Shown: one piece after another, positions 1,321-60,273 of the stretch
How the letters are laid out: each line of letters starts with the position of its first letter
Numbering within the stretch: the first letter of the stretch is position 1
NCBI GenBank assembly: GCA_949293325.1
Contig: CASFCZ010000058.1
Location: 12,817 to 76,816 of the forward strand
Length of the DNA stretch: 64,000 nucleotides
Direction of reading: 5' to 3'
Source of the DNA: an uncultured Eubacteriales bacterium
GTDB lineage: Bacteria; Bacillota; Clostridia; Lachnospirales; CAG-274
The notes under the pieces: generated by a model
Told to the model about the DNA's origin: nothing
The model's input: the letters and a program-made list of their open reading frames with translations, nothing else
Database searches by the model: none
Made by a program: the position numbers and the translations under genes

Positions 1321-1357
1321 ATAAATAAAGAGGCTTCGGAATAATTCGAAGCCTCTT
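1321..1357 (-). terminator. hairpin plus T-run distal to repeat-element copy 1 (minus-strand sense)
   Basis: Minus strand reads gaggcttcg-aattattc-cgaagcctc followed by tttatttatt. It is a diverged duplicate of the hairpin at 1845-1876. Confidence 0.4.
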
Positions 1358-1844
1358 AGACTGTCCATAAAGCTTATAAACCGATTAATTTTAAATTAAA
1401 TAAATATCTAGCTTGCATTTTCAGGTAACTTAAATCGTCGCAGACTTTAATTATAAGTCAAAATAGTGTAATTAGATGAGTAGAACCGACTTTTTATTGT
1501 AGATAAAAAGCTTTGAGCCTCAGGACGGGTTTTACCCCTTCAAGGGCCGATACTATTGCTTTGCAATACTGCTCGCCTATACTATACAACCGGAAGTATA
1601 GTTAGTGTTTCTTAAGGGATTTTAATTTCCTTGAAAAACGGTTCACTACTTTCACGATTTCAGCAAAAGCCACCCAAAGATCTGGGAAATACTTTGCGAT
1701 GCAGAAGTGGCTACGTCATACCTCTGTTGCAAGAAATGATTACGCCGCAATGATGAATGCGAACATACCAAAGGTATGGCTTTCAGCTTTTGCTGAAAGT
1801 GCTTACAAGCAGTTCTTGCAAGCATGTCGACTTTTTCGACATCC
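1358..1844. repeat. structured intergenic element, copy 1 (largest, about 487 bp)
   Basis: Shares the left end agactgtc...ttaaataaatatctagc.tgcatttt.aggtaacttaaa.cgtcgcagactttaat and the right end tgcaagaa...ttcttgcaagc.tgtcgactttttcgaca with copies at 6484-6810 and 31092-31349. Carries extra internal blocks. No conserved ORF. Confidence 0.8.
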
Positions 1845-1876
1845 AGAGAGGCTTCGAAAAATCCGAAGCCTCTTTT
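1845..1876. repeat. hairpin proximal to element copy 1, duplicate of 1327-1357
   Basis: agaggcttcg-aaaaatc-cgaagcctctttt. Same 9-bp stem as the left-flank hairpin; the loop differs by 2 substitutions and 1 indel. Confidence 0.6.
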
Positions 1877-1954: not shown

Positions 1955-4900
1955 TTACTCTCCTCTTACCGCATAAATTGGTAATTCAAAGGAGTTATCA
2001 AGAGTATACTGCATAATGAATGATGCGTCATCTGCAGAAATACTACCATCAGCATTTACATCAGCAATAAGCATATAATCCTCTGGATATGCAGCCTCAC
2101 ATGGCATTACGTAAGCATTATCAAGAGTCTTCTGCATAATTACCGAACAGTCATCAGCTGTAACTAAACCGTCCATATTAACATCACCTGCAACACCAGG
2201 AGCTGGAGTAGGTTCTTCATCTGTTACAATATTAATTGTACGATCAATAACATCTACACCAAGGAGTTCGCTTCCAACTGCACCGTAGAAACCATTGTCT
2301 ACAAGTGTAACTTTAAGACCTGTATTGCCGGCTGCCTTAACCTGGAACTCAATAGCAGCTATAGCACCGCTATTGCTTACTACTGTAAGACCATCCTGAC
2401 CAACATAGTTGGCAATCTTAATCTTACCAAGCTGAGCAGCTGTCTTTGTACCATCTGCATTTACATCTGTAAAGTCAGGGTTAGATGCACTTGGTACATA
2501 GTTAATGCTCTGGTTAATGTTTTCAAGTGTATAAGCCTTTGTTCCGTCTGCAGTTGTTGCTGGATCAGCAGGATCAACTGCTGCTACAGCCTCAATAACA
2601 TTAGGATCATAACTTACAAAGAATGTATAGTTATTGAATGCTGCATTGTTTTCAAGGCCAAGGGCATCAATATTAAATACTACCTTGTCGCCTACAGCAG
2701 CTTTTACATCACCATTAGGAGTAATATCAACACCTACAGTACCTGCAGGAACAACTACCTGAGTTGTAGTCTCTGTTGTTGTTTCAGTAGTTGTTTCAGT
2801 AGTTGTTTCTGTTGTAGCTACTGTTGTATCAGTTGTTACATCACCCTCAACTACTACTGTGTTAGGTATGGAAACACCTGTGATAACATCACCTGAACCT
2901 GGAGCTGCAAATAAACCGTTCTCTACAAGAACAATCTCAAGATCAGATGAACCTGCACCAACTACCTCAAAGTTAAGAGCTACAAGTGTACCGCTGTTTG
3001 TAGCAACTGTATTTACATCAAGATAGTTAGCAATCTTAATCTTACCAAGTTCAGCAGCTGTCTTTGTACCGTCTGCACTTACATCAGTATAATCACCATT
3101 TGATGCACTTGGAACATAAGCAATACTACTTTCTATAAGATCAGGAGCATAAACTACTGCACCATTTGCAAGTGAATAACCACTAAGGTCACCTGGGTCT
3201 GCTACAGATACAGCCTTAAGAACGCTTGGGTTATACTTAATAAAGAATGTGTAGTTGTTGTAGCCAGCTGTAGCTTCAACACCTGAAAGATCAATATTTA
3301 CCTTTACTGTAGTACCAACAGCATCAGCTGCAAGTGTCTGAGAACCTGCATCTGAAGCAACGCCTTCTACAGAAGCACCGATATTAATAGTGCCTACAAC
3401 AGGAGCAGTTGTTGTTGTTTCTGTAGGAGCCTCTGTTGTTGTTTCTACAGAAGCTACTGTTGTTGTCTCAGTAGGAGCTTCAGTAGTAGCCTCTGTTGGA
3501 GTTGTACTTCCGCCCTTTGCAATTATATCAACACCGTAAACAGGAGCATTTGTACCCTTACCTATGAAGTAGATAGTATCACCTGCTGCTACATCAGCAG
3601 TAAGTGTTGTATAGGTATCTGCAGTTACATTATTACGTCCGTCAATAGCTGAACATGTGCTGCCTGCTGTAACAGGACCTGCTGTAAGGTATACTTCCTT
3701 ACCTGCACCAACCTTAACATCTACCTTAACGGTAATGTCTGTCTTAGCTGTAACGGAGAAAGCTACACGATAGTTTCCGGAAGAACCGTCAACATTAAGC
3801 TGTGTATTTGTACTTGTACTTACAAGGTTAGTTGTGTATGAGTTGTCACCAATGGTAACAGCACCCTCAGTGTTTGCAGTTATATCAAGATTCTGCATAG
3901 CTACGATTGAAGCATTTGCATCGTCATAAGCAGTTGCACCTGAAGCTATAGGAACACTTGGAATATAAGCATAGCTTCCTGAAGGAGCAGGAGCTTCGGT
4001 AGTTGCTTCTGTTGGAGCTTCAGTAGTTGCTTCTGTTGGAGCTTCGGTAGTTGCTTCTGTTGGAGCTTCAGTAGTTGCTTCTGTTGGAGCCTCTGTAGTA
4101 GTATCTGCAGGAGTATCACCACCGCTTACGATAGAAGCAGTATATACTCTTGCACCTCTTGCTGTATAACCTGCAGTAGAAACTATTTTATATGTACCGT
4201 CTGCCTGTATATCTACAGTACCTGTTGTTCTTCCGTTTGAAGAACCAACAACTGTCTGAGTAAAGATAGCAGAACCGCTTGCATCAACTACTGATACAGA
4301 TGATTCATTTGTTGAGCCTGTACTTGAATAGTCAAACACAAGCTTGTCTCCTGCCTTTGCTTCAAAAACAAGAGCACCGCCTGCATCCTTTGCAAGTTCA
4401 ACAGATGCAACGCCACCTGTTGATGAAGTTCTCTTCTGAACAGTACCCTCAACACTGAAGCCTGTTCCAGCGATTTCATCAGATGTAAGAGCTTCCTTAT
4501 CTGCAGCTGCTGTTAATGCTGTAGCATCAAAGCCGTTTCCTGCAACTACAGGAGCCTCAGTTGTTGCTTCTGTAGGAGCCTCTGTTGTTGCTTCGGTTGG
4601 AGCCTCAGTTGTTGCTTCGGTTGGAGCTTCAGTAGTTGTTTCTACTGGTGTCTCTCCACCTTCTGCTGCAAATGTCATTCCGTAGAAATTAACTGCTGCA
4701 TCAGGAGCAGCCACATAATATGTACCGGCTGCTGGAACTGTAAATACAGCAGGCTCATATACATATGTAGTTGCATCAACTATAGGACCGGATGTTGCAC
4801 TTGCAAGTATTGTAGCAGCATCTGAACTATAGAAATTAATTGTTCTTGGATCAGCATTTGAACCTGTTACAAAGTAAACAGTAAGTGTACCTGCTGAAGG

Positions 4901-5239
4901 TGCTGTAACTGTAAAAGAACCTTCTCCACCAGGAGTACCCTTACCTCCTACCTGAAGTCTGTTGGAAAATGTTGCACCATCTGCGAATACCTTATCATTG
5001 GTAGTTACCTTTGACTTAGTACTAGCAGGAGTATAGCTGAACATTTCGCCAAGATCAGGGCTTGCAGTCAATGGATTTTCAAGAGCAAGATCATCTGCTG
5101 ACCATGAGGTTGCAGTTGCATAAGCTTCTACAGTGCCTACCTGCTCATCCGCTGCATAGACAGGGCCTGCATAAGCGCTTGTTAAAAGCATTGCAGCTGT
5201 CAAAATGCTACTGATAATTCTTTTTGTAGATTTTTTCAA
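1955..5239 (-). CDS. secreted scaffoldin-like protein: signal peptide, three related beta-sandwich modules, two cohesin-like modules, C-terminal dockerin
   Basis: TTG start at 5239 preceded by AAAGGAGGAAG. Signal peptide KKSTKRIISSILTAAMLLTSAYA. Cohesin-like blocks (VKVNIDLSGVE..YNNYTFFIKYNPSVLKAVSV; VVFNIDALGLE..FNNYTFFVSYDPNVIEAVAAV). Dockerin GDVNMDGLVTADDCSVIMQKTLD...DVNADGSISADDASFIMQYTLD. T/E/A/P linkers. Confidence 0.8.
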   Translation of the reverse strand: MKKSTKRIISSILTAAMLLTSAYAGPVYAADEQVGTVEAYATATSWSADDLALENPLTASPDLGEMFSYTPASTKSKVTTNDKVFADGATFSNRLQVGGKGTPGGEGSFTVTAPSAGTLTVYFVTGSNADPRTINFYSSDAATILASATSGPIVDATTYVYEPAVFTVPAAGTYYVAAPDAAVNFYGMTFAAEGGETPVETTTEAPTEATTEAPTEATTEAPTEATTEAPVVAGNGFDATALTAAADKEALTSDEIAGTGFSVEGTVQKRTSSTGGVASVELAKDAGGALVFEAKAGDKLVFDYSSTGSTNESSVSVVDASGSAIFTQTVVGSSNGRTTGTVDIQADGTYKIVSTAGYTARGARVYTASIVSGGDTPADTTTEAPTEATTEAPTEATTEAPTEATTEAPTEATTEAPAPSGSYAYIPSVPIASGATAYDDANASIVAMQNLDITANTEGAVTIGDNSYTTNLVSTSTNTQLNVDGSSGNYRVAFSVTAKTDITVKVDVKVGAGKEVYLTAGPVTAGSTCSAIDGRNNVTADTYTTLTADVAAGDTIYFIGKGTNAPVYGVDIIAKGGSTTPTEATTEAPTETTTVASVETTTEAPTETTTTAPVVGTINIGASVEGVASDAGSQTLAADAVGTTVKVNIDLSGVEATAGYNNYTFFIKYNPSVLKAVSVADPGDLSGYSLANGAVVYAPDLIESSIAYVPSASNGDYTDVSADGTKTAAELGKIKIANYLDVNTVATNSGTLVALNFEVVGAGSSDLEIVLVENGLFAAPGSGDVITGVSIPNTVVVEGDVTTDTTVATTETTTETTTETTTETTTQVVVPAGTVGVDITPNGDVKAAVGDKVVFNIDALGLENNAAFNNYTFFVSYDPNVIEAVAAVDPADPATTADGTKAYTLENINQSINYVPSASNPDFTDVNADGTKTAAQLGKIKIANYVGQDGLTVVSNSGAIAAIEFQVKAAGNTGLKVTLVDNGFYGAVGSELLGVDVIDRTINIVTDEEPTPAPGVAGDVNMDGLVTADDCSVIMQKTLDNAYVMPCEAAYPEDYMLIADVNADGSISADDASFIMQYTLDNSFELPIYAVRGE
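3990..4100. repeat. in-frame 24-bp tandem array (about 4.5 units) encoding a TEAPTEAT linker
   Basis: Unit ggagcttc(g/a)gtagttgcttctgtt repeats head-to-tail inside the scaffoldin CDS. Confidence 0.85.
4551..4646. repeat. second in-frame 24-bp tandem array (4 units), same linker type
   Basis: Unit ggagcctc(a/t)gttgttgcttc(t/g)gt(a/t). Near-identical to the array at 3990-4100, about 450 bp away in the same gene. Confidence 0.85.
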
Positions 5240-5338
5240 ATTACTTCCTCCTTTTATAATAAATATTTTATCCCTCTGTGTAGCTGTCTTTGCCAATGCC
5301 CATAGCAACAGACATAACTCCCCATAGGATTTGTTATT

Positions 5339-6453: not shown

Positions 6454-6481
6454 CAAAAAAAGGAAAAGGCCTGCCTTCTCC
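6454..6481 (-). terminator. hairpin plus T7 terminator distal to repeat-element copy 2
   Basis: Minus strand reads ggagaagg-cagg-ccttttcc followed by ttttttt. Sequence is unrelated to the hairpin on the other side of the element. Confidence 0.6.
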
Positions 6482-6483
6482 CC

Positions 6484-6810
6484 AGACTGTCAATCAACCT
6501 ATAAAACGATGGACTTTTTGAATTAAATAAATATCTAGCCTGCATTTTTAGGTAACTTAAAGCGTCGCAGACTTTAATCCGCAGGACGGGCTTTGCCCGT
6601 TCGAGGGTATAGTGAGAGTTTCTCAAGGGGTTTTAATCCCCTTGAGGAACGGTTCACTACTTTCTATGGTGGGTATGTCAGTACCCCTACTGCAAGAAAT
6701 GCTTGCGCCGCAAAGATTGATGCGGACATACCGAAGGTATGGCTTTCAGCTTTTGCTGAAAGTGCTGACAAGCATTTCTTGCAAGCGTGTCGACTTTTTC
6801 GACACGCTGA
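6484..6810. repeat. structured intergenic element, copy 2 (about 327 bp)
   Basis: Same ends as copies 1 and 3. Nested hairpins: acgggc/gcccgt, tagtga..tcacta enclosing ctcaagggg/ccccttgag, gggtat/gtaccc, a long tgcaagaaatgcttg stem capped by three small hairpins, and gcgtgtcga/tcgacacgc. Confidence 0.85.
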
Positions 6811-6846
6811 GCCTTGCATAGGAAAAATTTCTATGCAAGGCTTTTT
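6811..6846. terminator. hairpin immediately after the cwlD stop; has a T-run only on the plus strand
   Basis: gccttgcatag-gaaaaattt-ctatgcaaggc then ttttt on the plus strand. On the minus strand (cwlD sense) it runs straight into the element with no U-tract. Confidence 0.5.
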
Positions 6847-18935: not shown

Positions 18936-19075
18936 AACTAACACCTCCTGTATTAAAGATGAATAGCCGTATAAAAAAACTCCCTGCCGATGACAGGGAG
19001 ATAAATACAAAGTAATTGTATCCTCGGTAGGTTGTATACGTTACGCTCAAAGGCACCTACTGTCTACGGCACAAT
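18936..19075 (-). promoter_or_regulatory. rplJ (L10) leader with attenuator hairpin
   Basis: About 140-nt 5'UTR between the promoter and rplJ. It contains ctccctgtcatcggcagggag followed by ttttttt (18973-19000). Position and terminator-type architecture match the Firmicute L10 autoregulatory leader. Confidence 0.55.
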
Positions 19076-19079
19076 GGGT

Positions 19080-19108
19080 ATTATAACAAAGGTAAATAGG
19101 CTTGTCAA
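19080..19108 (-). promoter_or_regulatory. sigma-A promoter of rplJL
   Basis: Minus strand reads TTGACA, 17 nt, TATAAT (perfect consensus). Confidence 0.75.
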
Positions 19109-30145: not shown

Positions 30146-30943
30146 TTAATGGGCTTTAGTCTCCCAGACCTCACTGGAAGATGGGATTTCCAGACCTGAT
30201 GGATACAAAGTATTGTAATAGTCTACATAAAATTTAATTGAGTCATAGGACAGATCCCTGTCTACATTTATTATAATCAGTCTGCTGTCCAGAAGAGGAC
30301 TTGACATTTCAGGAGTCACACTGTCCATATGTATCTCCAGAGCACCCTCTGAAAGTGCTATATCCTTTACTGTGTATTCATCCTGAAGATTTCCTGCCAT
30401 AGCACAGGCAATAACCAGCTTCTGATTTGCAAACCAGTTTTTACCGTACTGTCCGTTAATACGCTCCTTAAGGCTTTCTCCGTTAATTGCAGGATGAGCC
30501 TCAATAAATCCATCCAGCTCCTCCTTTGAGGTAATTTCATAAATTTTGCGGCTTTGGTTAAGTTCAAAATCCATACCGTTAAATATTTCACTGTCTCCGT
30601 TCATTCTTGAAATAATAAGGCTGCCGGGCTGGATTTCCCTGTTCATTTCCGCCTCAACAGGAAGCTCATAACCGGGATTAAGGGTCTTGTACAGTACCAG
30701 GGTAGCATCATTAGCTGTCAATGTACCGCTGAAATCCAGGTCAAAGGCTGCAATCTCCTCAGCATCGGTCATATCTCCACCGGGCATTTCTCCCGTCCTT
30801 GCTGCCTCGAGAATAACACTGGCATCATCAGCTGTAATCAATCCGTCTCCGTTGGCATCACCGTAAACAACATCAGCGGCATATACAGAAGATGAAAATT
30901 GCAGCAGTGTTAAGGACAACAACAGTGCTAAAGTCTTTTTCAT
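30146..30943 (-). CDS. secreted protein with an N-terminal dockerin and a C-terminal domain of unknown function
   Basis: Signal peptide ending VYA. Dockerin repeats GDANGDGLITADDASVILEAA and DLDFSGTLTANDATLVLYKTLN. Confidence 0.75.
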   Translation of the reverse strand: MKKTLALLLSLTLLQFSSSVYAADVVYGDANGDGLITADDASVILEAARTGEMPGGDMTDAEEIAAFDLDFSGTLTANDATLVLYKTLNPGYELPVEAEMNREIQPGSLIISRMNGDSEIFNGMDFELNQSRKIYEITSKEELDGFIEAHPAINGESLKERINGQYGKNWFANQKLVIACAMAGNLQDEYTVKDIALSEGALEIHMDSVTPEMSSPLLDSRLIIINVDRDLSYDSIKFYVDYYNTLYPSGLEIPSSSEVWETKAH

Positions 30944-31068: not shown

Positions 31069-31091
31069 AAAGGCTCGGTTTCCCGAGCCTT
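31069..31091. repeat. left copy of a 23-bp direct repeat (terminator hairpin) flanking element copy 3
   Basis: aaaggctcggtttcccgagcctt, identical to 31350-31372. On the minus strand it is followed by ttttgtatgtttt, so it can function as a terminator. Confidence 0.85.
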
Positions 31092-31349
31092 TAGACTGTC
31101 AATAAACCTGCAAAACGTTGGATTTTTTGAATTAAATCAATATCTAGCCTGCATTCAGGTAACTTAAAGCGTCGCAGACTTTAATCCGCAGGACGGGCTT
31201 TGCCCGTTCGAGGGCATAACAAGAGTGTCGAAAAGAGGTTTATAACCTCTTTGAGGCACGGGTTGTTACTTCAATGGTGGGTACGCTAGTACCCTACTGC
31301 AAGAAATGCTTGCATTTCTTGCAAGCGTGTCGACTTTTTCGACACGCTG
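31092..31349. repeat. structured intergenic element, copy 3 (minimal, about 258 bp)
   Basis: Same termini as copies 1 and 2. The apical three-hairpin junction of copy 2 is replaced by a short loop. Stems covary with copy 2. Confidence 0.85.
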
Positions 31350-31372
31350 AAAGGCTCGGTTTCCCGAGCCTT
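31350..31372. repeat. right copy of the 23-bp direct repeat; overlaps the histidine-kinase stop codon
   Basis: Identical to 31069-31091. The kinase stop (31371-31373) overlaps its last 2 nt. Confidence 0.85.
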
Positions 31373-33104
31373 ATCTTATTATCTCCACAGGCAGGGTAAC
31401 GGTGATATCCGTCCCCACATCAAGCTTACTTTCAAGCTTGATACTGCCCTTATAGTAATTGACAACATGCTTGACTATGGCAAGTCCAAGTCCCGTACCT
31501 GCCGTTTTCTTGCTTCTGCCCTTATCAACCCTGTAGAAACGTTCAAATACCCTTGACTGGCTTTCAAGGGGTATACCTATGCCGGTATCGGATACCTTAA
31601 GGGTAAAGATATCTCCACCCGTTGCACTTACGGTTACAGAGCCGTTGGGCTTATTATACTTGACTGCATTTACAATAAGGTTGTTGAAAAGCTGATACAT
31701 CTTTTTATAATCAGCCTTTATACAGATATTGCCACAGTCGGTAAAAAGGGAAATGTTTTTCTCATTTGCCATAGGCGTAACACTCTGGAATATATCCCTG
31801 ATAAGCAGTGAAACACTTACAGGGCTTTCGCTGTCGGTATTTTTGCCGTTTTCCAGTCTGGATATGGTAAGTATATCATTAATCAGACCGGTCATATTCC
31901 CTGCTTCCGTTTTAATCCTCTGCAAAAATTCCTCACGTTGATCCTCACTGTATTTTATGCCTGAGGTAAGCAGTTCCGCATAGCCCTGTATTGATGTAAT
32001 AGGGGTCTTAAGCTCATGGGAGGCATTTGAGAAAAATTCCTGCCTCATATTTTCCGCTTCCCTGTCACCTGTTACATCGTGCATAAAGATTATTGCACCC
32101 TCGGCGGCATTTTCAAAGGCACTGCTGTTTACCTTGTTTATATTAATGCCAAATATATGACCCTTTGAATCAGTCAGGTCAAAACTCTGCTCAATACCCG
32201 TTTCAAAGGCCGCCTCTATTGCATCTGTTATTTGCAGATTCTGAGTATAATAAAGAATATTTTTCCCGTAATCCCTTTTATCACAGCCTATAACATCCAT
32301 TGCGGTTTTGTTGATTGTCATTACATTGCTTTTGTTATCCAGCAATATGAGGCCTTCCTGCATATTATCCAGAATATAGGCAGTCTTTTTCTTTTCGTAA
32401 TGTATATCACCTATGGTTTTTTCAATACGCTTTGACAGGGTATTGATTGCATCTGTAATGGAATTTATCTCATCATACTTACAGTGGGGCAAATTAAGGG
32501 AGGTGCTATAGCTTTTTATCCTTGAAAGTCTTGCACATATAGCTGTAAGGGGCTGGGTAATACTGTTTGCCAGGCGTTTGGAAAGGAGCAGGGAAAGGGC
32601 AAAGATAAGCACGCAGCTTAAAGAAATAGCCGGTATCAGAGACCGTGCAAAGTACAGCATGCCCTTGTAGGGTTCTGACAGACGCAGAACATATTCACCG
32701 TTTTCCGAAAGGGCAGCGGCATATATAAGCTCCGCACCCATTGTGGTAGAATAACGTATATTTGTGCCACGCCCCATTTCCAGCGCATTTTCAACCTCCG
32801 GGCGTGTGAGATGGTTATCTTCTTCTATATCATCTGAGGCATCCGTGTCTGCAACTACAGTACCGTCAGTCTTTATTACCGTCAGCCTTGCACTGCTGTC
32901 AAGGACATGGTCAAGCTGTGCCGTCTGGGCATCAATGTCCCCGTTATAATCCATGCTGTAATCTATAACGTGCAGAGTATCCATCAAATGCAGTTCCGTC
33001 TGATTAAGATTAAAATTTGCAAATATTATACAAAAAAGTATGCTGACAATGGCAAGACAGACAACGGTAATAAGCATGAAGCCCCTTAAAACCGCATTTT
33101 TCAT
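31371..33104 (-). CDS. sensor histidine kinase (PhoR-like: 2 TM, PAS-like, HisKA, HATPase)
   Basis: H-box SHELKTPITSIQGYAELL, N-box NAVKYN, G-boxes DTGIGI and GTGLGLAIV. Confidence 0.9.
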   Translation of the reverse strand: MKNAVLRGFMLITVVCLAIVSILFCIIFANFNLNQTELHLMDTLHVIDYSMDYNGDIDAQTAQLDHVLDSSARLTVIKTDGTVVADTDASDDIEEDNHLTRPEVENALEMGRGTNIRYSTTMGAELIYAAALSENGEYVLRLSEPYKGMLYFARSLIPAISLSCVLIFALSLLLSKRLANSITQPLTAICARLSRIKSYSTSLNLPHCKYDEINSITDAINTLSKRIEKTIGDIHYEKKKTAYILDNMQEGLILLDNKSNVMTINKTAMDVIGCDKRDYGKNILYYTQNLQITDAIEAAFETGIEQSFDLTDSKGHIFGININKVNSSAFENAAEGAIIFMHDVTGDREAENMRQEFFSNASHELKTPITSIQGYAELLTSGIKYSEDQREEFLQRIKTEAGNMTGLINDILTISRLENGKNTDSESPVSVSLLIRDIFQSVTPMANEKNISLFTDCGNICIKADYKKMYQLFNNLIVNAVKYNKPNGSVTVSATGGDIFTLKVSDTGIGIPLESQSRVFERFYRVDKGRSKKTAGTGLGLAIVKHVVNYYKGSIKLESKLDVGTDITVTLPVEIIR

Positions 33105-57473: not shown

Positions 57474-57679
57474 CCCCATGCCTCCTAAAAGCCTTTGGAG
57501 ATACTATATGCGGCAGGTATGGGCTTTATGCAGACAGGAATAAAACTCACTGCCATTAATTATAGATTATATTTGCCAAAATGTAAAGTATAAAACAAGC
57601 CATACCAAAAAATAAGCTATGCCTTTAACGAAAGTGCTTACAGGCATTACCTGCATGGGTATACACTTTTCAACATGCT

Positions 57680-57712
57680 AAAAGGAGCCGTCCTGCAAAA
57701 GGCGGCTCCTTT
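57680..57712 (-). terminator. intrinsic terminator of the LRR-dockerin gene
   Basis: Minus strand reads aggagccgcc-ttttgca-ggacggctcct followed by ttt. Confidence 0.65.
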
Positions 57713-57715
57713 GGA

Positions 57716-60058
57716 TTATTTTTCACATGGCATTATATAACTGTTATCAAGGGTCTTTTGTATTATATAGGAAGCATCTGCGGCAGTCAGACCTTTGCTT
57801 GCATCTGCATCAAGATAATAATCAGGTTCTCCGCCTTTTTTCTCAAGATCGGTAATAAAACTGCCGTCAAGTACCTTTTGCATTAACATAGCCCCATCAC
57901 CTGCTGTTAAAAGTCCGTCTCCGTTGGCATCACCATAAATAAATGTAATATATTCCACATTGTAGCCTTGAGCCAATGCCCATTGTTCCCCATAGCTGCC
58001 CTCTATTACCCTAACGGTAGTCAAAGGGGTTCCCTCAAAGGTAGTATCCTCTATGGCTGTTACAGAATCTGTAATACTGATTGAAACAAGGGAGGAACAA
58101 TCCTTAAAGGCAAGGGCACCCATAGATGTAACTCCGTCAGGAACAGTCAGCTCAGTGAGATTAGTACAACCCTCAAAGGCACCTGCCCCTATTGCTGTAA
58201 CCTTAATCCCATCCACGGTGTATGGTATCTCGTCAATAACAACAGATGTATCACTGTCTGTTATAACACCCTCCATATCATAATAAATATTACCACCCTC
58301 TACAGGATATACACCGTCGGGAGTTTCAGTTATGCCCGGATCCTGTGGAATATCCGGCTCATCAGGTTGTTGGGCATCTGAATAATTATAGTGAACGGTA
58401 ACAGAGTCCAGCTCATCAGTTAGTCTGGTTATACTGTTCCACTCCTCCTCACTTCCCTCATAATAAATATCACTCAGGTTATCACAATGAAGAAAAGCAC
58501 CTATTCCTATCCATTCTAAACTTTTGGGAATATTTACACAGGTTAAGCTGCTACAGCCATAGAATACATAGATGGAAATGCTATTAATACCCCGGGGAAT
58601 GCTTATGTTTGTTAAACTGCTGCAATCCCTGAATGCTTCAGTCCCTATTAACGTAATACTGTCAGGGAGGTTTATTTCTTTTAAGCTGCTGCAACCATAG
58701 AATGCATGCATTTTAATACCCGTAATGCCCTCAGGGAGGTTTATTTCTTTTAAGCTGCTGCATTTACTGAATGCACTTTCACCTATTCCCGTAATGCTGT
58801 CAGGGAGGCTTATACTGGTTAAGCTGCTACAGCCACTGAATGTGGCAATTCCAATCCCCCTAATGCCATCAGGGAGGCTTATGCCTGTTATGCCGCTGCA
58901 GCCACTGAATGCACCACTTCCAATTAGCGTAATGCCATCAGGGAGGCTTATGCCCGTTAAGCTGCTGCAGCCACTGAATGCACTGTCCCCGATTTCCGTA
59001 ATACCATCAGGGAGGCTTATGCCAGTCAAGCCGCTGCAGCTACTGAATGCCTGATTTCCAACCTCCCTGACAGTGTCAGGGATTACAAAATCTCCTTCTT
59101 TACCTGCAGGATAATTAATAATCTTTGTAAAATCCTTATTATATAATACTCCGTCAACAGAGCTAAATAAGGCATTGTTTCCGGTGGTGCTAATTTCGGT
59201 TAAACTGCTACAGCCATTGAATACACCATCCCCAATTTCCGTAACACTGTCAGGAATGCTTATGTCTGTTATGCTGATACAGTAACGGAATGCAGCTCTT
59301 TCAATGGTTGTAACACTGTTGGGGATATCTATGTCCGTTAAGCTGCTGCAAAAGGAGAAGGCAGAGCTTCCAATAGTCGTAACGCTGTCAGGAATGCTTA
59401 TACTCCTTAAGCTGCCGCAGTCACTGAAAGCGTAATCCCCAATGGTCATAACCCCATCAGAGATTCTCAGGCTTGTTAAGCTGCTGCAGTTGGCAAAGGT
59501 GCGCTGCTCAATTGTTGTAATACTGCCCGGGATACTTATATCTGTTAAACTGTCACAGCCAAAAAACGCAAGTCTCCCGATAGCCGTAACGCTGTCAGGA
59601 ATATTTATACTTGTTAAGCTGCTGCAGCCATAGAATGCATATTCTCCAATAGTCGTAACACTGTCAGGAATGCTTATACTCCTTAAGCCGCTGCAGCCAT
59701 CAAATGCTTCACTCCCAATAGTCGTAACGCTGTCAGGAATGGTTATGTCTGTTAAGTTATTGCAGTTATGGAATGCAGAGCTTCTAATGGTTGTAATCTT
59801 TATCCCGTCAATTTCACCCGGAATATCGGCAGCCACAACGGATTCATCACAATCAATTATTTCTCCCAATATATTATAGTAGATATTACCCCCTTCAACG
59901 GCATAGGAAAAATCTCCCGTTACCATAACAGTAAGGGCTGCATCGGAGGTGGTATCATCCCCACCTATTGTCCCTGCCATAACAGTACTTACACCCACAT
60001 CAGGCAAAGTTACAGCCACCGCAAGAATCAGGCTGACAAGTTTTCTTTTGAATTTCAT
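57716..60058 (-). CDS. secreted BspA-like leucine-rich-repeat protein with a C-terminal dockerin
   Basis: ATG at 60058 with an AAGGAG RBS. About 20 tandem 23-aa repeats of form IPDSVTxIGxxAFxxCSSLTxI. C-terminal dockerin GDANGDGLLTAGDGAMLMQKVLD...DADASKGLTAADASYIIQKTLD. Confidence 0.85.
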   Translation of the reverse strand: MKFKRKLVSLILAVAVTLPDVGVSTVMAGTIGGDDTTSDAALTVMVTGDFSYAVEGGNIYYNILGEIIDCDESVVAADIPGEIDGIKITTIRSSAFHNCNNLTDITIPDSVTTIGSEAFDGCSGLRSISIPDSVTTIGEYAFYGCSSLTSINIPDSVTAIGRLAFFGCDSLTDISIPGSITTIEQRTFANCSSLTSLRISDGVMTIGDYAFSDCGSLRSISIPDSVTTIGSSAFSFCSSLTDIDIPNSVTTIERAAFRYCISITDISIPDSVTEIGDGVFNGCSSLTEISTTGNNALFSSVDGVLYNKDFTKIINYPAGKEGDFVIPDTVREVGNQAFSSCSGLTGISLPDGITEIGDSAFSGCSSLTGISLPDGITLIGSGAFSGCSGITGISLPDGIRGIGIATFSGCSSLTSISLPDSITGIGESAFSKCSSLKEINLPEGITGIKMHAFYGCSSLKEINLPDSITLIGTEAFRDCSSLTNISIPRGINSISIYVFYGCSSLTCVNIPKSLEWIGIGAFLHCDNLSDIYYEGSEEEWNSITRLTDELDSVTVHYNYSDAQQPDEPDIPQDPGITETPDGVYPVEGGNIYYDMEGVITDSDTSVVIDEIPYTVDGIKVTAIGAGAFEGCTNLTELTVPDGVTSMGALAFKDCSSLVSISITDSVTAIEDTTFEGTPLTTVRVIEGSYGEQWALAQGYNVEYITFIYGDANGDGLLTAGDGAMLMQKVLDGSFITDLEKKGGEPDYYLDADASKGLTAADASYIIQKTLDNSYIMPCEK
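58510..59800. repeat. 69-bp-periodic coding repeats (LRR units)
   Basis: Recurrent gtcagg(g/a)a(g/t)gcttat...gttaa(g/a)ctgctgcagcc blocks at the DNA level. Confidence 0.8.
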
Positions 60059-60273
60059 GCCTAACAACTCCTTTTTTCGTAATTATATTCGATTTATACA
60101 GGAGAAGATAATTTTTACTTCTGCTTAGGTCTACCCTATGATATAACACAAATAAATTTATCTTTAACCTATTTAATTACTGTCTTATATATATATTATA
60201 TGTTTTTACTATAAAAGTCAATTTAATATAATAATAAGGAGCATATTTATATAAAATATTTTTATGTATAATA

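What the first reader, a model, noticed from the sequence alone, without database searches (positions are those of the whole stretch)
6484..6810. Compensatory base-pair changes between copies indicate selection on a fold, not on a protein
Seen: the outer stem tagtga...tcacta (copy 2, about 6609-6660) becomes taacaa...ttgtta in copy 3. That is three double substitutions, and all pairs are preserved. The enclosed hairpin is ctcaagggg/ccccttgag in copy 2, aaagaggtt/aacctcttt in copy 3 and taaggga/ttcctt(g) in copy 1. The sequences differ but the shape is the same. gggtat/gtaccc versus gggtac/gtaccc differs by a U-G versus C-G pair on the plus strand. In copy 3 the long stem tgcaagaaatgcttg/caagcatttcttgca is retained in shortened form (tgcaagaaatgc/gcatttcttgca), while its 67-nt three-hairpin cap (ccgca/tgcgg, catacc/ggtatg, ctttcagc/gctgaaag) is absent. 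The ORFs the track predicts here (for example MRTYRRYGFQLLLKVL...) fall in the part deleted from copy 3. Wobble pairs give conflicting strand signals, so the transcribed strand is unresolved. Inference: this is a functional structured RNA (or ssDNA intermediate) of about 260-490 nt.
Basis: seen in the sequence. Interest (0 to 1): 0.7.

Follow-up and report, generated by a model that had tools for sequence, protein, structure and literature searches.

The report
Structured mini-transposon that duplicates terminator hairpins
The region is one copy of a small, gene-less mobile DNA element with IS1182-type ends that lands on transcription-terminator hairpins and duplicates them; its conserved fold is real, but whether that fold acts as RNA or as DNA is not settled.

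Summary
Window 6484-6809 is one of three intact copies; the others are 1358-1846 and 31092-31349, and a decayed relic lies near 57598-57683. The named stems exist and keep pairing through double substitutions. About 30 further variants from gut and rumen Clostridia confirm this: helix P2 has 7 of 8 pairs changed on both sides, and outer P3 has 6 of 6.

The element is not a stand-alone RNA gene. It is a 220-490 bp, ORF-less, multicopy mobile element.
- At least 20 distinct loci carry a 22-38 nt direct duplication that is the whole local terminator-like hairpin.
- A strain with the identical neighbouring protein has the empty site with a single hairpin.
- Another strain has an element in the opposite orientation at that same hairpin.

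The tips, (C)AGNNTGTCRAWAAA, and the terminal hairpin GGCTGTCGA-N5-TCGACAGCC match the ends of IS1182-family insertion sequences. That family is reported to target stem-loops.

No transposase, parent element or Rfam family was found. The strand of the fold stays open: folding energies are symmetric and the wobble counts are weak and conflicting.

Verdict: a MITE-like IS1182-type element with hairpin-duplicating insertion and an unusually conserved internal fold. It is a new variant of a known kind. An RNA role is possible but unproven.

The parts
6484..6809 (+). Copy 2 (the finding): complete 326-nt element, AGACTGTCAATC...TCGACACGCTG. Its flanking hairpins differ, so it has no TSD.
6460..6483 (-). 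Hairpin abutting the left end of copy 2. It is terminator-like on the minus strand and differs from the hairpin on the right.
6810..6843 (+). Hairpin abutting the right end of copy 2. It is a terminator-like hairpin followed by a T-run.
6484..6498 (+). Left terminal inverted repeat AGACTGTCAATCAAC (consensus (C)AGNNTGTCRAWAAA).
6557..6577 (+). P1 hairpin TTAAAG...CTTTAA. In family 1 it lies inside an invariant block AAAGCGTCGCAGACTTTAATCCGCAGG. Family 2 has a different hairpin at the same place.
6584..6602 (+). P2 hairpin GGACGGGC-TTT-GCCCGTTC, strongly covarying.
6610..6659 (+). P3. The outer stem is tagtga/tcacta (covarying). The inner, terminator-like variable hairpin is gtttctcaagggg/ccccttgaggaac. 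The 3' bulge holds a conserved (C/A)ACGG.
6671..6686 (+). P4 hairpin GGGTAT-GTCA-GTACCC.
6690..6783 (+). P5. The basal 12-bp stem (CTGCAAGAAATGC / GCATTTCTTGCA) is invariant in sequence in alignment A2. In copy 2 it is capped by an optional 63-nt three-hairpin insert (6706-6768).
6785..6807 (+). P6 terminal hairpin GCGTGTCGA-CTTTT-TCGACACGC, which is the right inverted repeat plus its complement. This is the same architecture as the tips of IS1182-family elements.
1358..1846 (+). Copy 1: 489-nt element with three extra internal modules.
1329..1357 (+). Left copy of the duplicated target hairpin of copy 1 (AGAGGCTTCGG..CGAAGCCTCTT).
1847..1874 (+). Right copy of the duplicated target hairpin of copy 1.
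31092..31349 (+). Copy 3: 258-nt minimal element. It is absent from the otherwise identical locus L021.
31069..31091 (+). Left copy of the 23-nt TSD of copy 3 (AAAGGCTCGGTTTCCCGAGCCTT).
31350..31372 (+). Right copy of the 23-nt TSD of copy 3. It overlaps the stop codon region of the converging HisKA gene (31371-33104, minus strand).
57598..57683 (+). Decayed relic of the 3' ~85 nt of an element (~65-70% identity). Its helices are broken. A terminator hairpin follows it.

Best explanation
The region is a copy of a non-autonomous (MITE-like) DNA transposon of 220-490 bp found in gut and rumen Clostridia. Its ends are of the IS1182-family type. It is presumably moved in trans by an IS1182-family DDE transposase encoded elsewhere in the genome.

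That kind of transposase picks targets by shape, choosing DNA stem-loops, mostly intrinsic terminators, rather than by sequence. Here the two element ends are joined at the two feet of the hairpin on opposite strands. Gap repair then leaves one complete copy of the hairpin on each side. The result is a target-site duplication of 22-38 nt whose length follows the hairpin. Both neighbouring genes therefore keep a terminator-like hairpin, which makes the insertion nearly harmless.

Within the element, the terminal hairpin P6 and the sequence-invariant hairpin P5 are transposon-end architecture (inverted repeat plus its complement, and a subterminal site). The internal helices P1-P4 and the optional modules are kept paired by compensatory change, so pairing itself matters. 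It could matter in a single-stranded or cruciform DNA form, or in a transcript.

Shown:
- mobility
- hairpin duplication
- similarity of the ends to IS1182-family ends
- covariation

Inferred:
- the identity of the transposase
- the joining geometry
- the level (DNA or RNA) at which the internal fold acts
For: Multicopy and widespread:
- 19 loci in about 6 Clostridia MAGs, with at least 12 copies in one MAG and many at contig ends.
- 45 metagenome loci and 1 viral-contig locus.
- 38 distinct sequences, forming 30 clusters at 96% identity.

Target-site duplication:
- 20 distinct duplications. Three lengths above 38 nt look to me like over-extended alignments, so I take the real range as 22-38 nt.
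- 86% of each duplication lies inside one hairpin.
- The 5' boundary is 0-1 nt from the hairpin foot in 16/20 cases.
- Mean folding energy is -13.7 kcal/mol, against -3.0 for random pieces of the same length.

Mobility:
- L021 encodes the identical 577-aa HisKA protein and has one hairpin and no element. The window and L020 have hairpin, 258-nt element, hairpin.
- L022 has an element in the opposite orientation at the same hairpin.

Ends:
- An imperfect 15-16 nt TIR is present.
- IS1182-family elements fetched here have IRs (A)AGRGGCTGTCnCAAAAGT, often as a terminal hairpin, for example GGGGCTGTCCAAAAAGTCGGATAGCCCC.
- The reverse-complemented right end of the element is CAGGCTGTCGATAAAGTCGACAGCC.
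- A PWM built from 20 IS1182 IRs scores highest exactly at the element's right tip in 5/6 variants. The left tip is in the top four.

Literature:
- IS1272 (IS1182 family) targets stem-loops and terminators by structure, in both orientations, and hits the same terminator repeatedly (PMC4923244).
- A published model predicts stem-loop duplication if the ends attack the 5' feet of a cruciform (PMC5678879).

Fold: covariation is shown. The decayed relic has lost its helices.
Against: - No transposase gene or autonomous parent sharing these ends was found. It was absent from the window (Pfam on 10 ORFs), from the 70 element-bearing loci (tblastn with the IS1272 transposase; IR-flanked ORF search) and from about 130 IS1182 loci (motif scan).
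- All IS1182-family elements examined here show the hairpin-replacing mode. Their flanks are an A-run and a T-run with no duplication. The duplicating mode is therefore not documented for the family in my data. The '0-60 bp direct repeat' figure for IS1182 is from my memory of ISfinder and I could not verify it.
- PWM scores at the tips (7-12 bits) are only in the top 0.1-0.01% of the window.
- The left TIR is the least conserved part of the element.
- The internal core has no detectable counterpart in IS1182 non-coding regions (CM R1).
- Orientation is biased relative to terminator polarity. A purely symmetric cruciform attack does not predict this.
Confidence: 0.68

Rival explanations
1. The conserved core (P1-P4 plus modules) is a genuine structured non-coding RNA of a new family, carried as cargo by the mobile element or required for its transposition or regulation. 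It would be transcribed either from the plus strand up to the duplicated terminator, or as a 3'-UTR extension of the neighbouring gene.
For: - Covariation is strong in helices whose arms lie 40-60 nt apart and enclose other hairpins.
- Single-stranded blocks are conserved: CCGCAGG, CGAGGA, CACGG.
- Insertions are modular, as in large RNAs.
- The internal blocks are more conserved than the left TIR.
- Sporadic mismatches inside helices are G.U rather than A.C on the plus strand, 9 against 2 independent cases.
- Orientation is biased. The neighbouring gene's U-tract ends up beyond the element, so read-through across the element is expected.
- The decayed relic has lost its pairing.
Against: - No Rfam family matches.
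- There is no conserved promoter.
- MFE is equal on both strands (15/30, mean difference -1.7 +/- 6.7 kcal/mol).
- The one conserved mismatch, in P2, is A.C on the plus strand and G.U on the minus strand.
- Expected read-through would produce the minus strand, whereas the wobble counts favour the plus strand.
- Loops are T/A-rich rather than GNRA-type.
- G.U pairs make up only 6-8% of pairs.
Confidence: 0.25
2. The compensatory changes are produced by mutation, not selection. Quasi-palindrome templated correction (intrastrand template switching) keeps DNA inverted repeats perfect, and some internal hairpins are captured host terminators. On this reading the internal fold has no function.
For: - Inner P3 hairpins look like ordinary A-run/stem/T-run terminators and differ completely between subfamilies.
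- Window-type copies carry an internal TIR-like AGAGTGTCGAAAA, which suggests a composite origin.
- Both strands fold equally well.
- G.U pairs are rare.
Against: - The outer P3 arms are 40-60 nt apart, with an asymmetric conserved bulge between them. In my judgement that is a poor substrate for templated correction.
- The invariant unpaired blocks and the sequence-invariant P5 show purifying selection.
- The relic has decayed rather than being kept perfect.
Confidence: 0.12
3. It is a MITE of the IS1202 family, whose IS1202 subgroup makes long 27-28 bp direct repeats.
For: Long direct repeats are reported for this family, and its IRs start with TGT (bioRxiv 10.1101/2022.12.17.520857). The median TSD here is 28.5 nt.
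Against: - TSD length here ranges from 22 to 38 nt and follows the hairpin, which does not fit a fixed ruler.
- The TGTC lies 4-5 nt inside the tip.
- The ends match IS1182 IRs instead.
Confidence: 0.04
4. It is an RNA-guided or RNA-mediated mobile system: a TnpB/IscB omega-RNA remnant of IS200/IS605, an IS110 bridge RNA, or a class C group II intron-like retroelement that homes to terminators.
For: It is a highly structured non-coding element with a subterminal hairpin at the right end and a preference for terminators, as class C group II introns have (the intron comparison is from my own knowledge).
Against: - From my own knowledge, none of these systems leaves a long target-site duplication.
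- Target hairpins are unrelated in sequence while the element's interior is constant within a genome, so no part of it can act as a guide.
- No TnpB, IscB, DEDD recombinase or reverse transcriptase lies nearby.
- No Rfam hit to group II intron, HEARO or IS605-orfB models was found.
Confidence: 0.02

Closest known systems
IS1272 and other IS1182-family insertion sequences (DDE; Pfam PF05598 + PF01609 + PF13751)
   Same: - Both target stem-loops and intrinsic terminators by structure, in both orientations, with repeated hits in the same terminator.
- The IR consensus GGCTGTC..AAAAGT is shared.
- A terminal hairpin formed by the IR and its complement is shared.
   Different: - This element has no transposase and is only 220-490 bp.
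- The target hairpin is duplicated in full (22-38 nt) rather than replaced or partly deleted.
- The left tip is degenerate.
- A large internal fold is conserved by covariation and has no counterpart in the IS1182 non-coding regions examined.
Classical bacterial MITEs (Correia/CREE, RUP, BOX, ERIC, bcr1, Nezha)
   Same: All are short, ORF-less, multicopy, intergenic, bounded by TIRs, able to fold, and mobilised in trans.
   Different: - From my own knowledge, those elements have short fixed TSDs (for example TA), and their fold is essentially left end pairing with right end.
- Here the TSD is a whole hairpin of variable length.
- Here the fold is a series of local and nested helices with conserved junctions and optional modules.
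IS1202 subgroup of the IS1202 family
   Same: Long direct repeats of about 27-28 bp.
   Different: That subgroup has a fixed repeat length, and a preference for palindromic targets was not found in the preprint text searched. Its IRs start with TGT at the tip, unlike the IS1182-type ends here. The element's TSD is variable and set by the hairpin.
Bacterial class C group II introns
   Same: Insertion next to intrinsic terminator hairpins, which is a safe site downstream of genes.
   Different: From my own knowledge, those are ribozyme and RT retroelements over 600 nt long with no target duplication. No intron domains were detected here.

Membership tests
IS1182-family-derived non-autonomous element (MITE) | Terminal inverted repeats matching the family's IR consensus | tested here: met
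   IRs read from more than 40 IS1182-family loci give (A)AGRGGCTGTCnCAAAAGT. The element's right end is CAGGCTGTCGATAAAGT (13/15 identical to the L098 and L122 IRs) and its left end is CAGAGTGTCAAAAAAG. A PWM from those IRs places its top hit exactly at the right tip in 5/6 variants. The scores are modest (7-12 bits).
IS1182-family-derived non-autonomous element (MITE) | Tip organised as a hairpin (IR plus adjacent complement), as in many family members | tested here: met
   P6 is GGCTGTCGA-N5-TCGACAGCC. It compares with GGGGCTGTCC-AAAAAGT-CGGATAGCCCC (L100), GAGGGTGTGTC-AAAATGA-TGCACCC (L213) and the tips of L196, L151 and L205. The left tip forms only a weak hairpin.
IS1182-family-derived non-autonomous element (MITE) | Insertion into stem-loop or palindromic targets without sequence specificity | tested here: met
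   20 distinct target hairpins are unrelated in sequence. The empty site is a single hairpin. Literature on the family: PMC4923244 and PMC5678879.
IS1182-family-derived non-autonomous element (MITE) | Outcome at the target: variable or absent direct repeats (family members replace the hairpin; ISfinder lists DR 0-60 bp, from memory) | tested here: inconclusive
   The element duplicates the whole hairpin. Every IS1182 element I examined has no duplication. Duplication is predicted only as a variant in a published model.
IS1182-family-derived non-autonomous element (MITE) | A cognate DDE transposase present in the same genomes | not tested
   None was found in the window or in the 70 element loci.
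IS1202 family (IS1202 subgroup) | Fixed 27-28 bp direct repeats; IR starting TGT at the tip | tested here: not met
   The TSD is 22-38 nt and tracks the hairpin. TGTC lies 4-5 nt inside the tip.
IS200/IS605 PATE or TnpB/IscB omega-RNA | No target duplication; insertion 3' of a short motif; omega-RNA next to or derived from tnpB/iscB | tested here: not met
   Long TSDs are present. No such ORF is nearby. No Rfam HEARO or IS605-orfB hit was found.
IS110/IS1111 bridge (seek) RNA element | Guide loops complementary to target and donor; no long TSD; DEDD recombinase | tested here: not met
   Targets differ while the element's interior is constant within a genome. Long TSDs are present. No recombinase gene was found.
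Any described RNA family (Rfam 15) | Covariance-model match at or near the gathering score | tested here: not met
   The gathering-threshold scan of the window finds only the L10 leader. E-value scans of copy 2, copy 1 and the 440-nt variant in L049 return only noise.

The most novel reading that the evidence does not exclude
The covarying internal core (P1-P4 with its conserved junctions CCGCAGG, CGAGGA and CACGG) is a new structured RNA that belongs to the transposon's own biology. It could be a transposon-encoded RNA that helps a structure-specific IS1182-type transposase engage terminator hairpins or that controls its activity. Alternatively it could be an RNA delivered into the 3' UTRs of host genes by the orientation-biased insertion. 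Either way this would be the first RNA component tied to hairpin-targeted DDE transposition.
Probability: 0.2. Interest if true: 0.8.

Novelty: new variant of a known kind. Interest (0 to 1): 0.55.

Why it matters
- Natural evidence for a predicted mechanism. If the explanation is right, these elements show in nature the stem-loop-duplicating outcome of structure-dependent transposition. That outcome has so far only been drawn as a model for IS1272.
- A low-cost insertion strategy. By duplicating the terminator, the element leaves a terminator-like hairpin on both sides of itself.
- Practical use for annotation. The elements are recently active in uncultured gut and rumen Clostridia and break MAG assemblies. 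Annotating them improves assemblies and avoids false ncRNA or ORF calls.
- An unusual fold for a MITE. The conserved, modular, covarying internal fold and the orientation bias relative to terminator polarity are not explained by simple MITE biology. They give a concrete, testable case for an RNA-level or ssDNA-level function in a DDE transposon.

Tried and rejected
- Rfam at gathering threshold and at E-value thresholds on three variants gave nothing relevant.
- blastn of copy 2 against PLSDB plasmids and INPHARED phages gave no match.
- IS1202 was my first lead because of its long direct repeats. I dropped it because its repeats are a fixed 27-28 bp and its ends differ.
- Search for an autonomous parent:
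  - IR-flanked ORFs in all element loci: none.
  - tblastn of the IS1272 transposase against all element loci and the window: none.
  - Pfam on 10 window ORFs: all housekeeping.
  - Motif scan for P5, P6, J1 and core motifs in about 130 IS1182 loci: none.
  - Viral scan with the P6 hairpin: only an ordinary terminator, L139.
  - Two large protein searches returned thousands of IS1182 transposases, mostly from Bacilli and Bacteroidales-type elements. None had these ends in the six clusters or loci sets inspected.
- A covariance model of the P2 core found only the window's own copies.
- pXO1 was fetched in the hope of finding IS1627 as an IS1182 seed. The annotation was unhelpful. pSAP110A was not in the collection.
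- An empty site for copy 2 could not be obtained because every other contig breaks inside the element.
- Promoter scans gave no conserved sigma-70 site.
- A long-range 5'-tip to GACAG pairing proposed by RNAalifold was not convincing.
- A high PWM hit at window 34031 lies, by eye on the sequence, in what looks like a small coding region and was dismissed.
- Literature searches for hairpin-duplicating MITEs found nothing specific.
Full report

Yes. The window holds three intact copies of one non-coding sequence, all on the plus strand:
- copy 1 at 1358-1846
- copy 2 at 6484-6809, which is the finding
- copy 3 at 31092-31349

- tagtga/tcacta (6610-6615 with 6654-6659) is taacaa/ttgtta in copy 3 (31217-31222 with 31263-31268).
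- The enclosed hairpin has three different sequences in the three copies.
- The 12-bp stem tgcaagaaatgc/gcatttcttgca is kept in copy 3, while the 63-nt three-hairpin cap (6706-6768) is missing there.

The copies fold much better than dinucleotide shuffles, with z = -9.2, -7.6 and -4.6.

**2. More copies**

- An exact-pattern scan of one genome per species with the core TAAANCGTCGCAGACTTTAAT returned 19 loci in about six uncultured Clostridia or Clostridiales MAGs. One MAG (MGYG-HGUT-01183) holds at least 12 copies, and several sit at contig ends, as repeats do.
- A metagenome scan with the 3'-end pattern ATTTCTTGCANNNNTGTCGACTTT returned 45 loci, mostly human gut. A viral-contig scan returned one.
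- After de-replication there are 38 distinct sequences, forming 30 clusters at 96% identity and measuring about 220-490 nt.
- There are two types of 5' core. Family 1 has CTTAAAGCGTCGCAGACTTTAAT-CCGCAGG. Family 2 has GTTAAGAAAACCTTGGTTTTCTTAAAYTAAT-TCCGCAAC. Both are a hairpin at the same position but with different sequence.

**3. Covariation**

- Helix P2 (14 distinct variants): 7 of 8 pairs change on both sides, 87.5% of cells are paired, and the covariation score is 0.60. Column shuffles give 0.25 (0 of 500 reach the observed value) and slid partners give at most 0.16.
- Outer stem of P3 (8 distinct types): 6 of 6 pairs change on both sides, 97.9% of cells are paired, and the score is 1.07 against 0.31 (0 of 500). 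For this count the two strands were joined by an artificial linker, and I chose the register.
- P6 swaps GC<->CG at two pairs and GC->AU at one.
- P5 never varies in sequence in the 13-sequence alignment A2.
- A decayed relic at about 57598-57683 has lost these pairings.

**4. It is a mobile element**

Most complete copies are flanked by a direct duplication that differs from locus to locus and is itself a hairpin.
- There are 20 distinct duplications. Three lengths above 38 nt look to me like over-extended alignments, so I take the real range as 22-38 nt.
- On average 86% of each duplication lies inside one hairpin.
- The 5' boundary is 0-1 nt from the hairpin foot in 16 of 20 cases.
- Mean folding energy is -13.7 kcal/mol, against -3.0 for random window pieces of the same length.

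The decisive case is copy 3.
- Contigs that encode exactly the same 577-aa HisKA protein include L021. There the intergenic region is 281 nt shorter and carries a single hairpin: ...ACAAAAGGCTCGGTTTCCCGAGCCTT|ATCTTATT.
- The window and L020 carry hairpin, TAGACTGTC...CACGCTG, then the hairpin again.
- In L022 an element sits at the same hairpin in the opposite orientation, so that was an independent insertion.

The element boundaries therefore include the conserved (T/C)AGA at the 5' end and ...GACASSC(W)G at the 3' end. The duplicated segment is the target.

**5. Which kind of element?**

The two ends share an imperfect 15-16 nt inverted repeat, (C)AGNNTGTCRAWAAA. The right end is a hairpin, GGCTGTCGA-N5-TCGACAGCC.

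*IS1202.* A fixed-ruler transposase does not fit a duplication that follows hairpin length. This argues against the IS1202 subgroup, which makes 27-28 bp repeats.

*What the literature says about IS1272 (IS1182 family).*
- It inserts into stem-loops and terminators by structure, in both orientations, and repeatedly into the same terminator. Normally it replaces part of the hairpin (PMC4923244).

*How I tested the link.*
- I recovered IS1272 from a staphylococcal fabI plasmid. Its IR is GAGTCTGGGACATAAA.
- I collected IS1182-family elements from IMG/VR and ENA.
- Their IRs read (A)AGRGGCTGTCnCAAAAGT.
- In many, each tip is a hairpin made of the IR and its complement. Examples are GGGGCTGTCCAAAAAGTCGGATAGCCCC in L100 and GAGGGTGTGTCAAAATGATGCACCC in L213.

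*Result.*
- The element's reverse-complemented right end, CAGGCTGTCGATAAAGTCGACAGCC, has the same sequence core and the same architecture.
- A weight matrix built from 20 IS1182 IRs gives its best score exactly at the right tip in 5 of 6 element variants. It places the left tip among the top four positions.

*The difference.* Every IS1182 element I examined sits between an A-run and a T-run with no duplication, which is the hairpin-replacing mode. This element duplicates the hairpin.

*Still missing.* I found no transposase and no autonomous parent.

**6. Anatomy of the fold (copy 2 coordinates)**

| Part | Coordinates | Notes |
|---|---|---|
| Left TIR | 6484-6498 | |
| AT-rich segment | after the TIR | Holds a variable helix P0 and a TTGMAWTWAAT motif resembling half of P5 |
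| P1 | 6557-6577 | |
| Junction | after P1 | CCGCAGG |
| P2 | 6584-6602 | Strongly covarying |
| Junction | after P2 | CGAGG |
| P3 | 6610-6659 | Outer covarying stem, inner terminator-like variable hairpin, conserved (C/A)ACGG bulge |
| P4 | 6671-6686 | |
| P5 | 6690-6783 | Invariant 12-bp base, optional cap |
| P6 | 6785-6807 | Terminal hairpin |

- Longer variants carry extra modules at fixed points. One example is GGCTGGTC-hairpin-TGCTCGCCTATGCAACCTA.
- I read P5 and P6 as transposon-end architecture.
- P1-P4 have no counterpart in the IS1182 non-coding regions I could search with a covariance model.

**7. RNA or DNA, and which strand?** This is unresolved.

- Minimum free energies of the plus and minus strands do not differ (the plus strand is better in 15 of 30 variants; mean difference -1.7 +/- 6.7 kcal/mol).
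- Isolated mismatches inside helices are G.U rather than A.C on the plus strand. The raw count is 11 against 5. After removing flank hairpins and shared ancestry it is about 9 against 2.
- The one conserved mismatch, in P2 (GAGC/GCCC), is A.C on the plus strand and G.U on the minus strand.
- No conserved promoter is seen.
- No Rfam family matches.

**8. An unexpected orientation bias**

- In 26 of 30 loci the gene on the right-end side converges on the element, with its stop codon 20-50 nt from the right end. The left-side neighbour is on either strand (15 against 14).
- In tandem gene contexts the element is antisense to the gene it follows in 12 cases against 2.
- Terminator polarity agrees. 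Only an A-run to the left of the hairpin occurs in 9 loci, only a T-run to the right in 2, and both in 6.
- The hairpin copy next to the right end therefore loses its U-tract, and the copy beyond the left end keeps it. The neighbour's transcript should then read through the element's minus strand.
- This bias is not predicted by a symmetric attack on a cruciform. It also does not fit the plus-strand wobble signal. I leave it unexplained.

**9. Conclusion**

The best-supported reading is a MITE-like, IS1182-type element that targets terminator hairpins by shape and duplicates them. It carries an internal fold that is under selection for pairing at a level not yet known. I put confidence in the identity and mechanism at about 0.68.

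The reading that the internal core is a functional RNA is not excluded, at about 0.2-0.25. It overlaps with the main explanation rather than competing with it. Mutational self-correction of palindromes, an IS1202 origin, and RNA-guided or retro-mobility are less likely, for the reasons given under the rival explanations.

**10. Limits**

- The copies are related by descent, so shuffle statistics overstate independence.
- The P3 count used hand-extracted strands.
- The PWM was built after seeing the similarity.
- The ISfinder figure of 0-60 bp direct repeats for IS1182 is from memory.

Noticed in passing
window 57598-57683 (+): A fourth copy, decayed and partial: the last ~85 nt of an element at ~65-70% identity, followed by a terminator hairpin. 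Its P5 and P6 pairings are broken.
   Followed up: partly
element loci L003-L070 and window copies: Insertion orientation is biased relative to terminator polarity. The gene on the right-end side converges on the element in 26/30 loci. In tandem contexts the ratio is 12 antisense to 2 sense. An A-run on the left only occurs in 9 loci against a T-run on the right only in 2. This implies read-through of the element's minus strand from the neighbouring gene.
   Followed up: partly
window 6460-6483 and 6810-6843: Copy 2 has different hairpins on its two sides, so it has no TSD, unlike copies 1 and 3. This may reflect recombination between copies. Contigs from other strains all break inside the element, so no empty site could be seen.
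   Followed up: partly
L019:1541-1919: A variant with the AAAGCGTCGCAGACTTTAATCCGCAGG-P2 module duplicated in tandem and a degenerate left tip (CAGATAATAAAA). It still has a 21-nt hairpin TSD.
   Followed up: no
L047, L051, L070, L049, L054 (same right flank GAGGACACAAGGCATTTGCCCTGTGTCC): Different subfamily variants of the element (266-nt and ~440-nt forms with different P2 and P3 sequences) occupy what looks like the same target hairpin in different metagenomes. This could be repeated independent insertion or exchange between copies.
   Followed up: no
window copies 2 and 3, about 6616-6630 and 31221-31235: The inner P3 hairpin begins with a sequence like the element's own terminal repeat (AGAGTGTCGAAAA, PWM 7.5 bits). 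This hints that the element is a composite built from end-like modules.
   Followed up: partly
L213-L228, L098-L101, L196 (IS1182-family elements): Many IS1182-family elements carry a complete terminator-like hairpin at each tip, with an internal T-run at the left tip, and sit between a host A-run and T-run. They therefore replace a host terminator with their own. L079 has a tandem duplication of the right tip, like the duplication reported for IS1272L.
   Followed up: partly
L139:4436-4456 (-): An ordinary gene terminator, AGGCTGTCGACTTTGTCGACAGCCTTTTT, is nearly identical to the element's P6 hairpin. It could be chance or a solo remnant.
   Followed up: no
window 18965-19087 (-): Ribosomal protein L10 leader (Rfam RF00557, 73.4 bits). 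It was the only Rfam family above gathering score in the window.
   Followed up: no
window 1955-5308 (-) and 57716-60067 (-): Two large ORFs carry internal repeats: 12/24-nt periodic repeats at 2762-4660, and 69-nt repeats (about 16 units) at 58527-59836. Dockerin-like GDxNGDG repeats occur at 30823 and 57895, and cohesin and dockerin Pfam hits appear in neighbouring genes. The host looks like a cellulosome-bearing Clostridia member.
   Followed up: no
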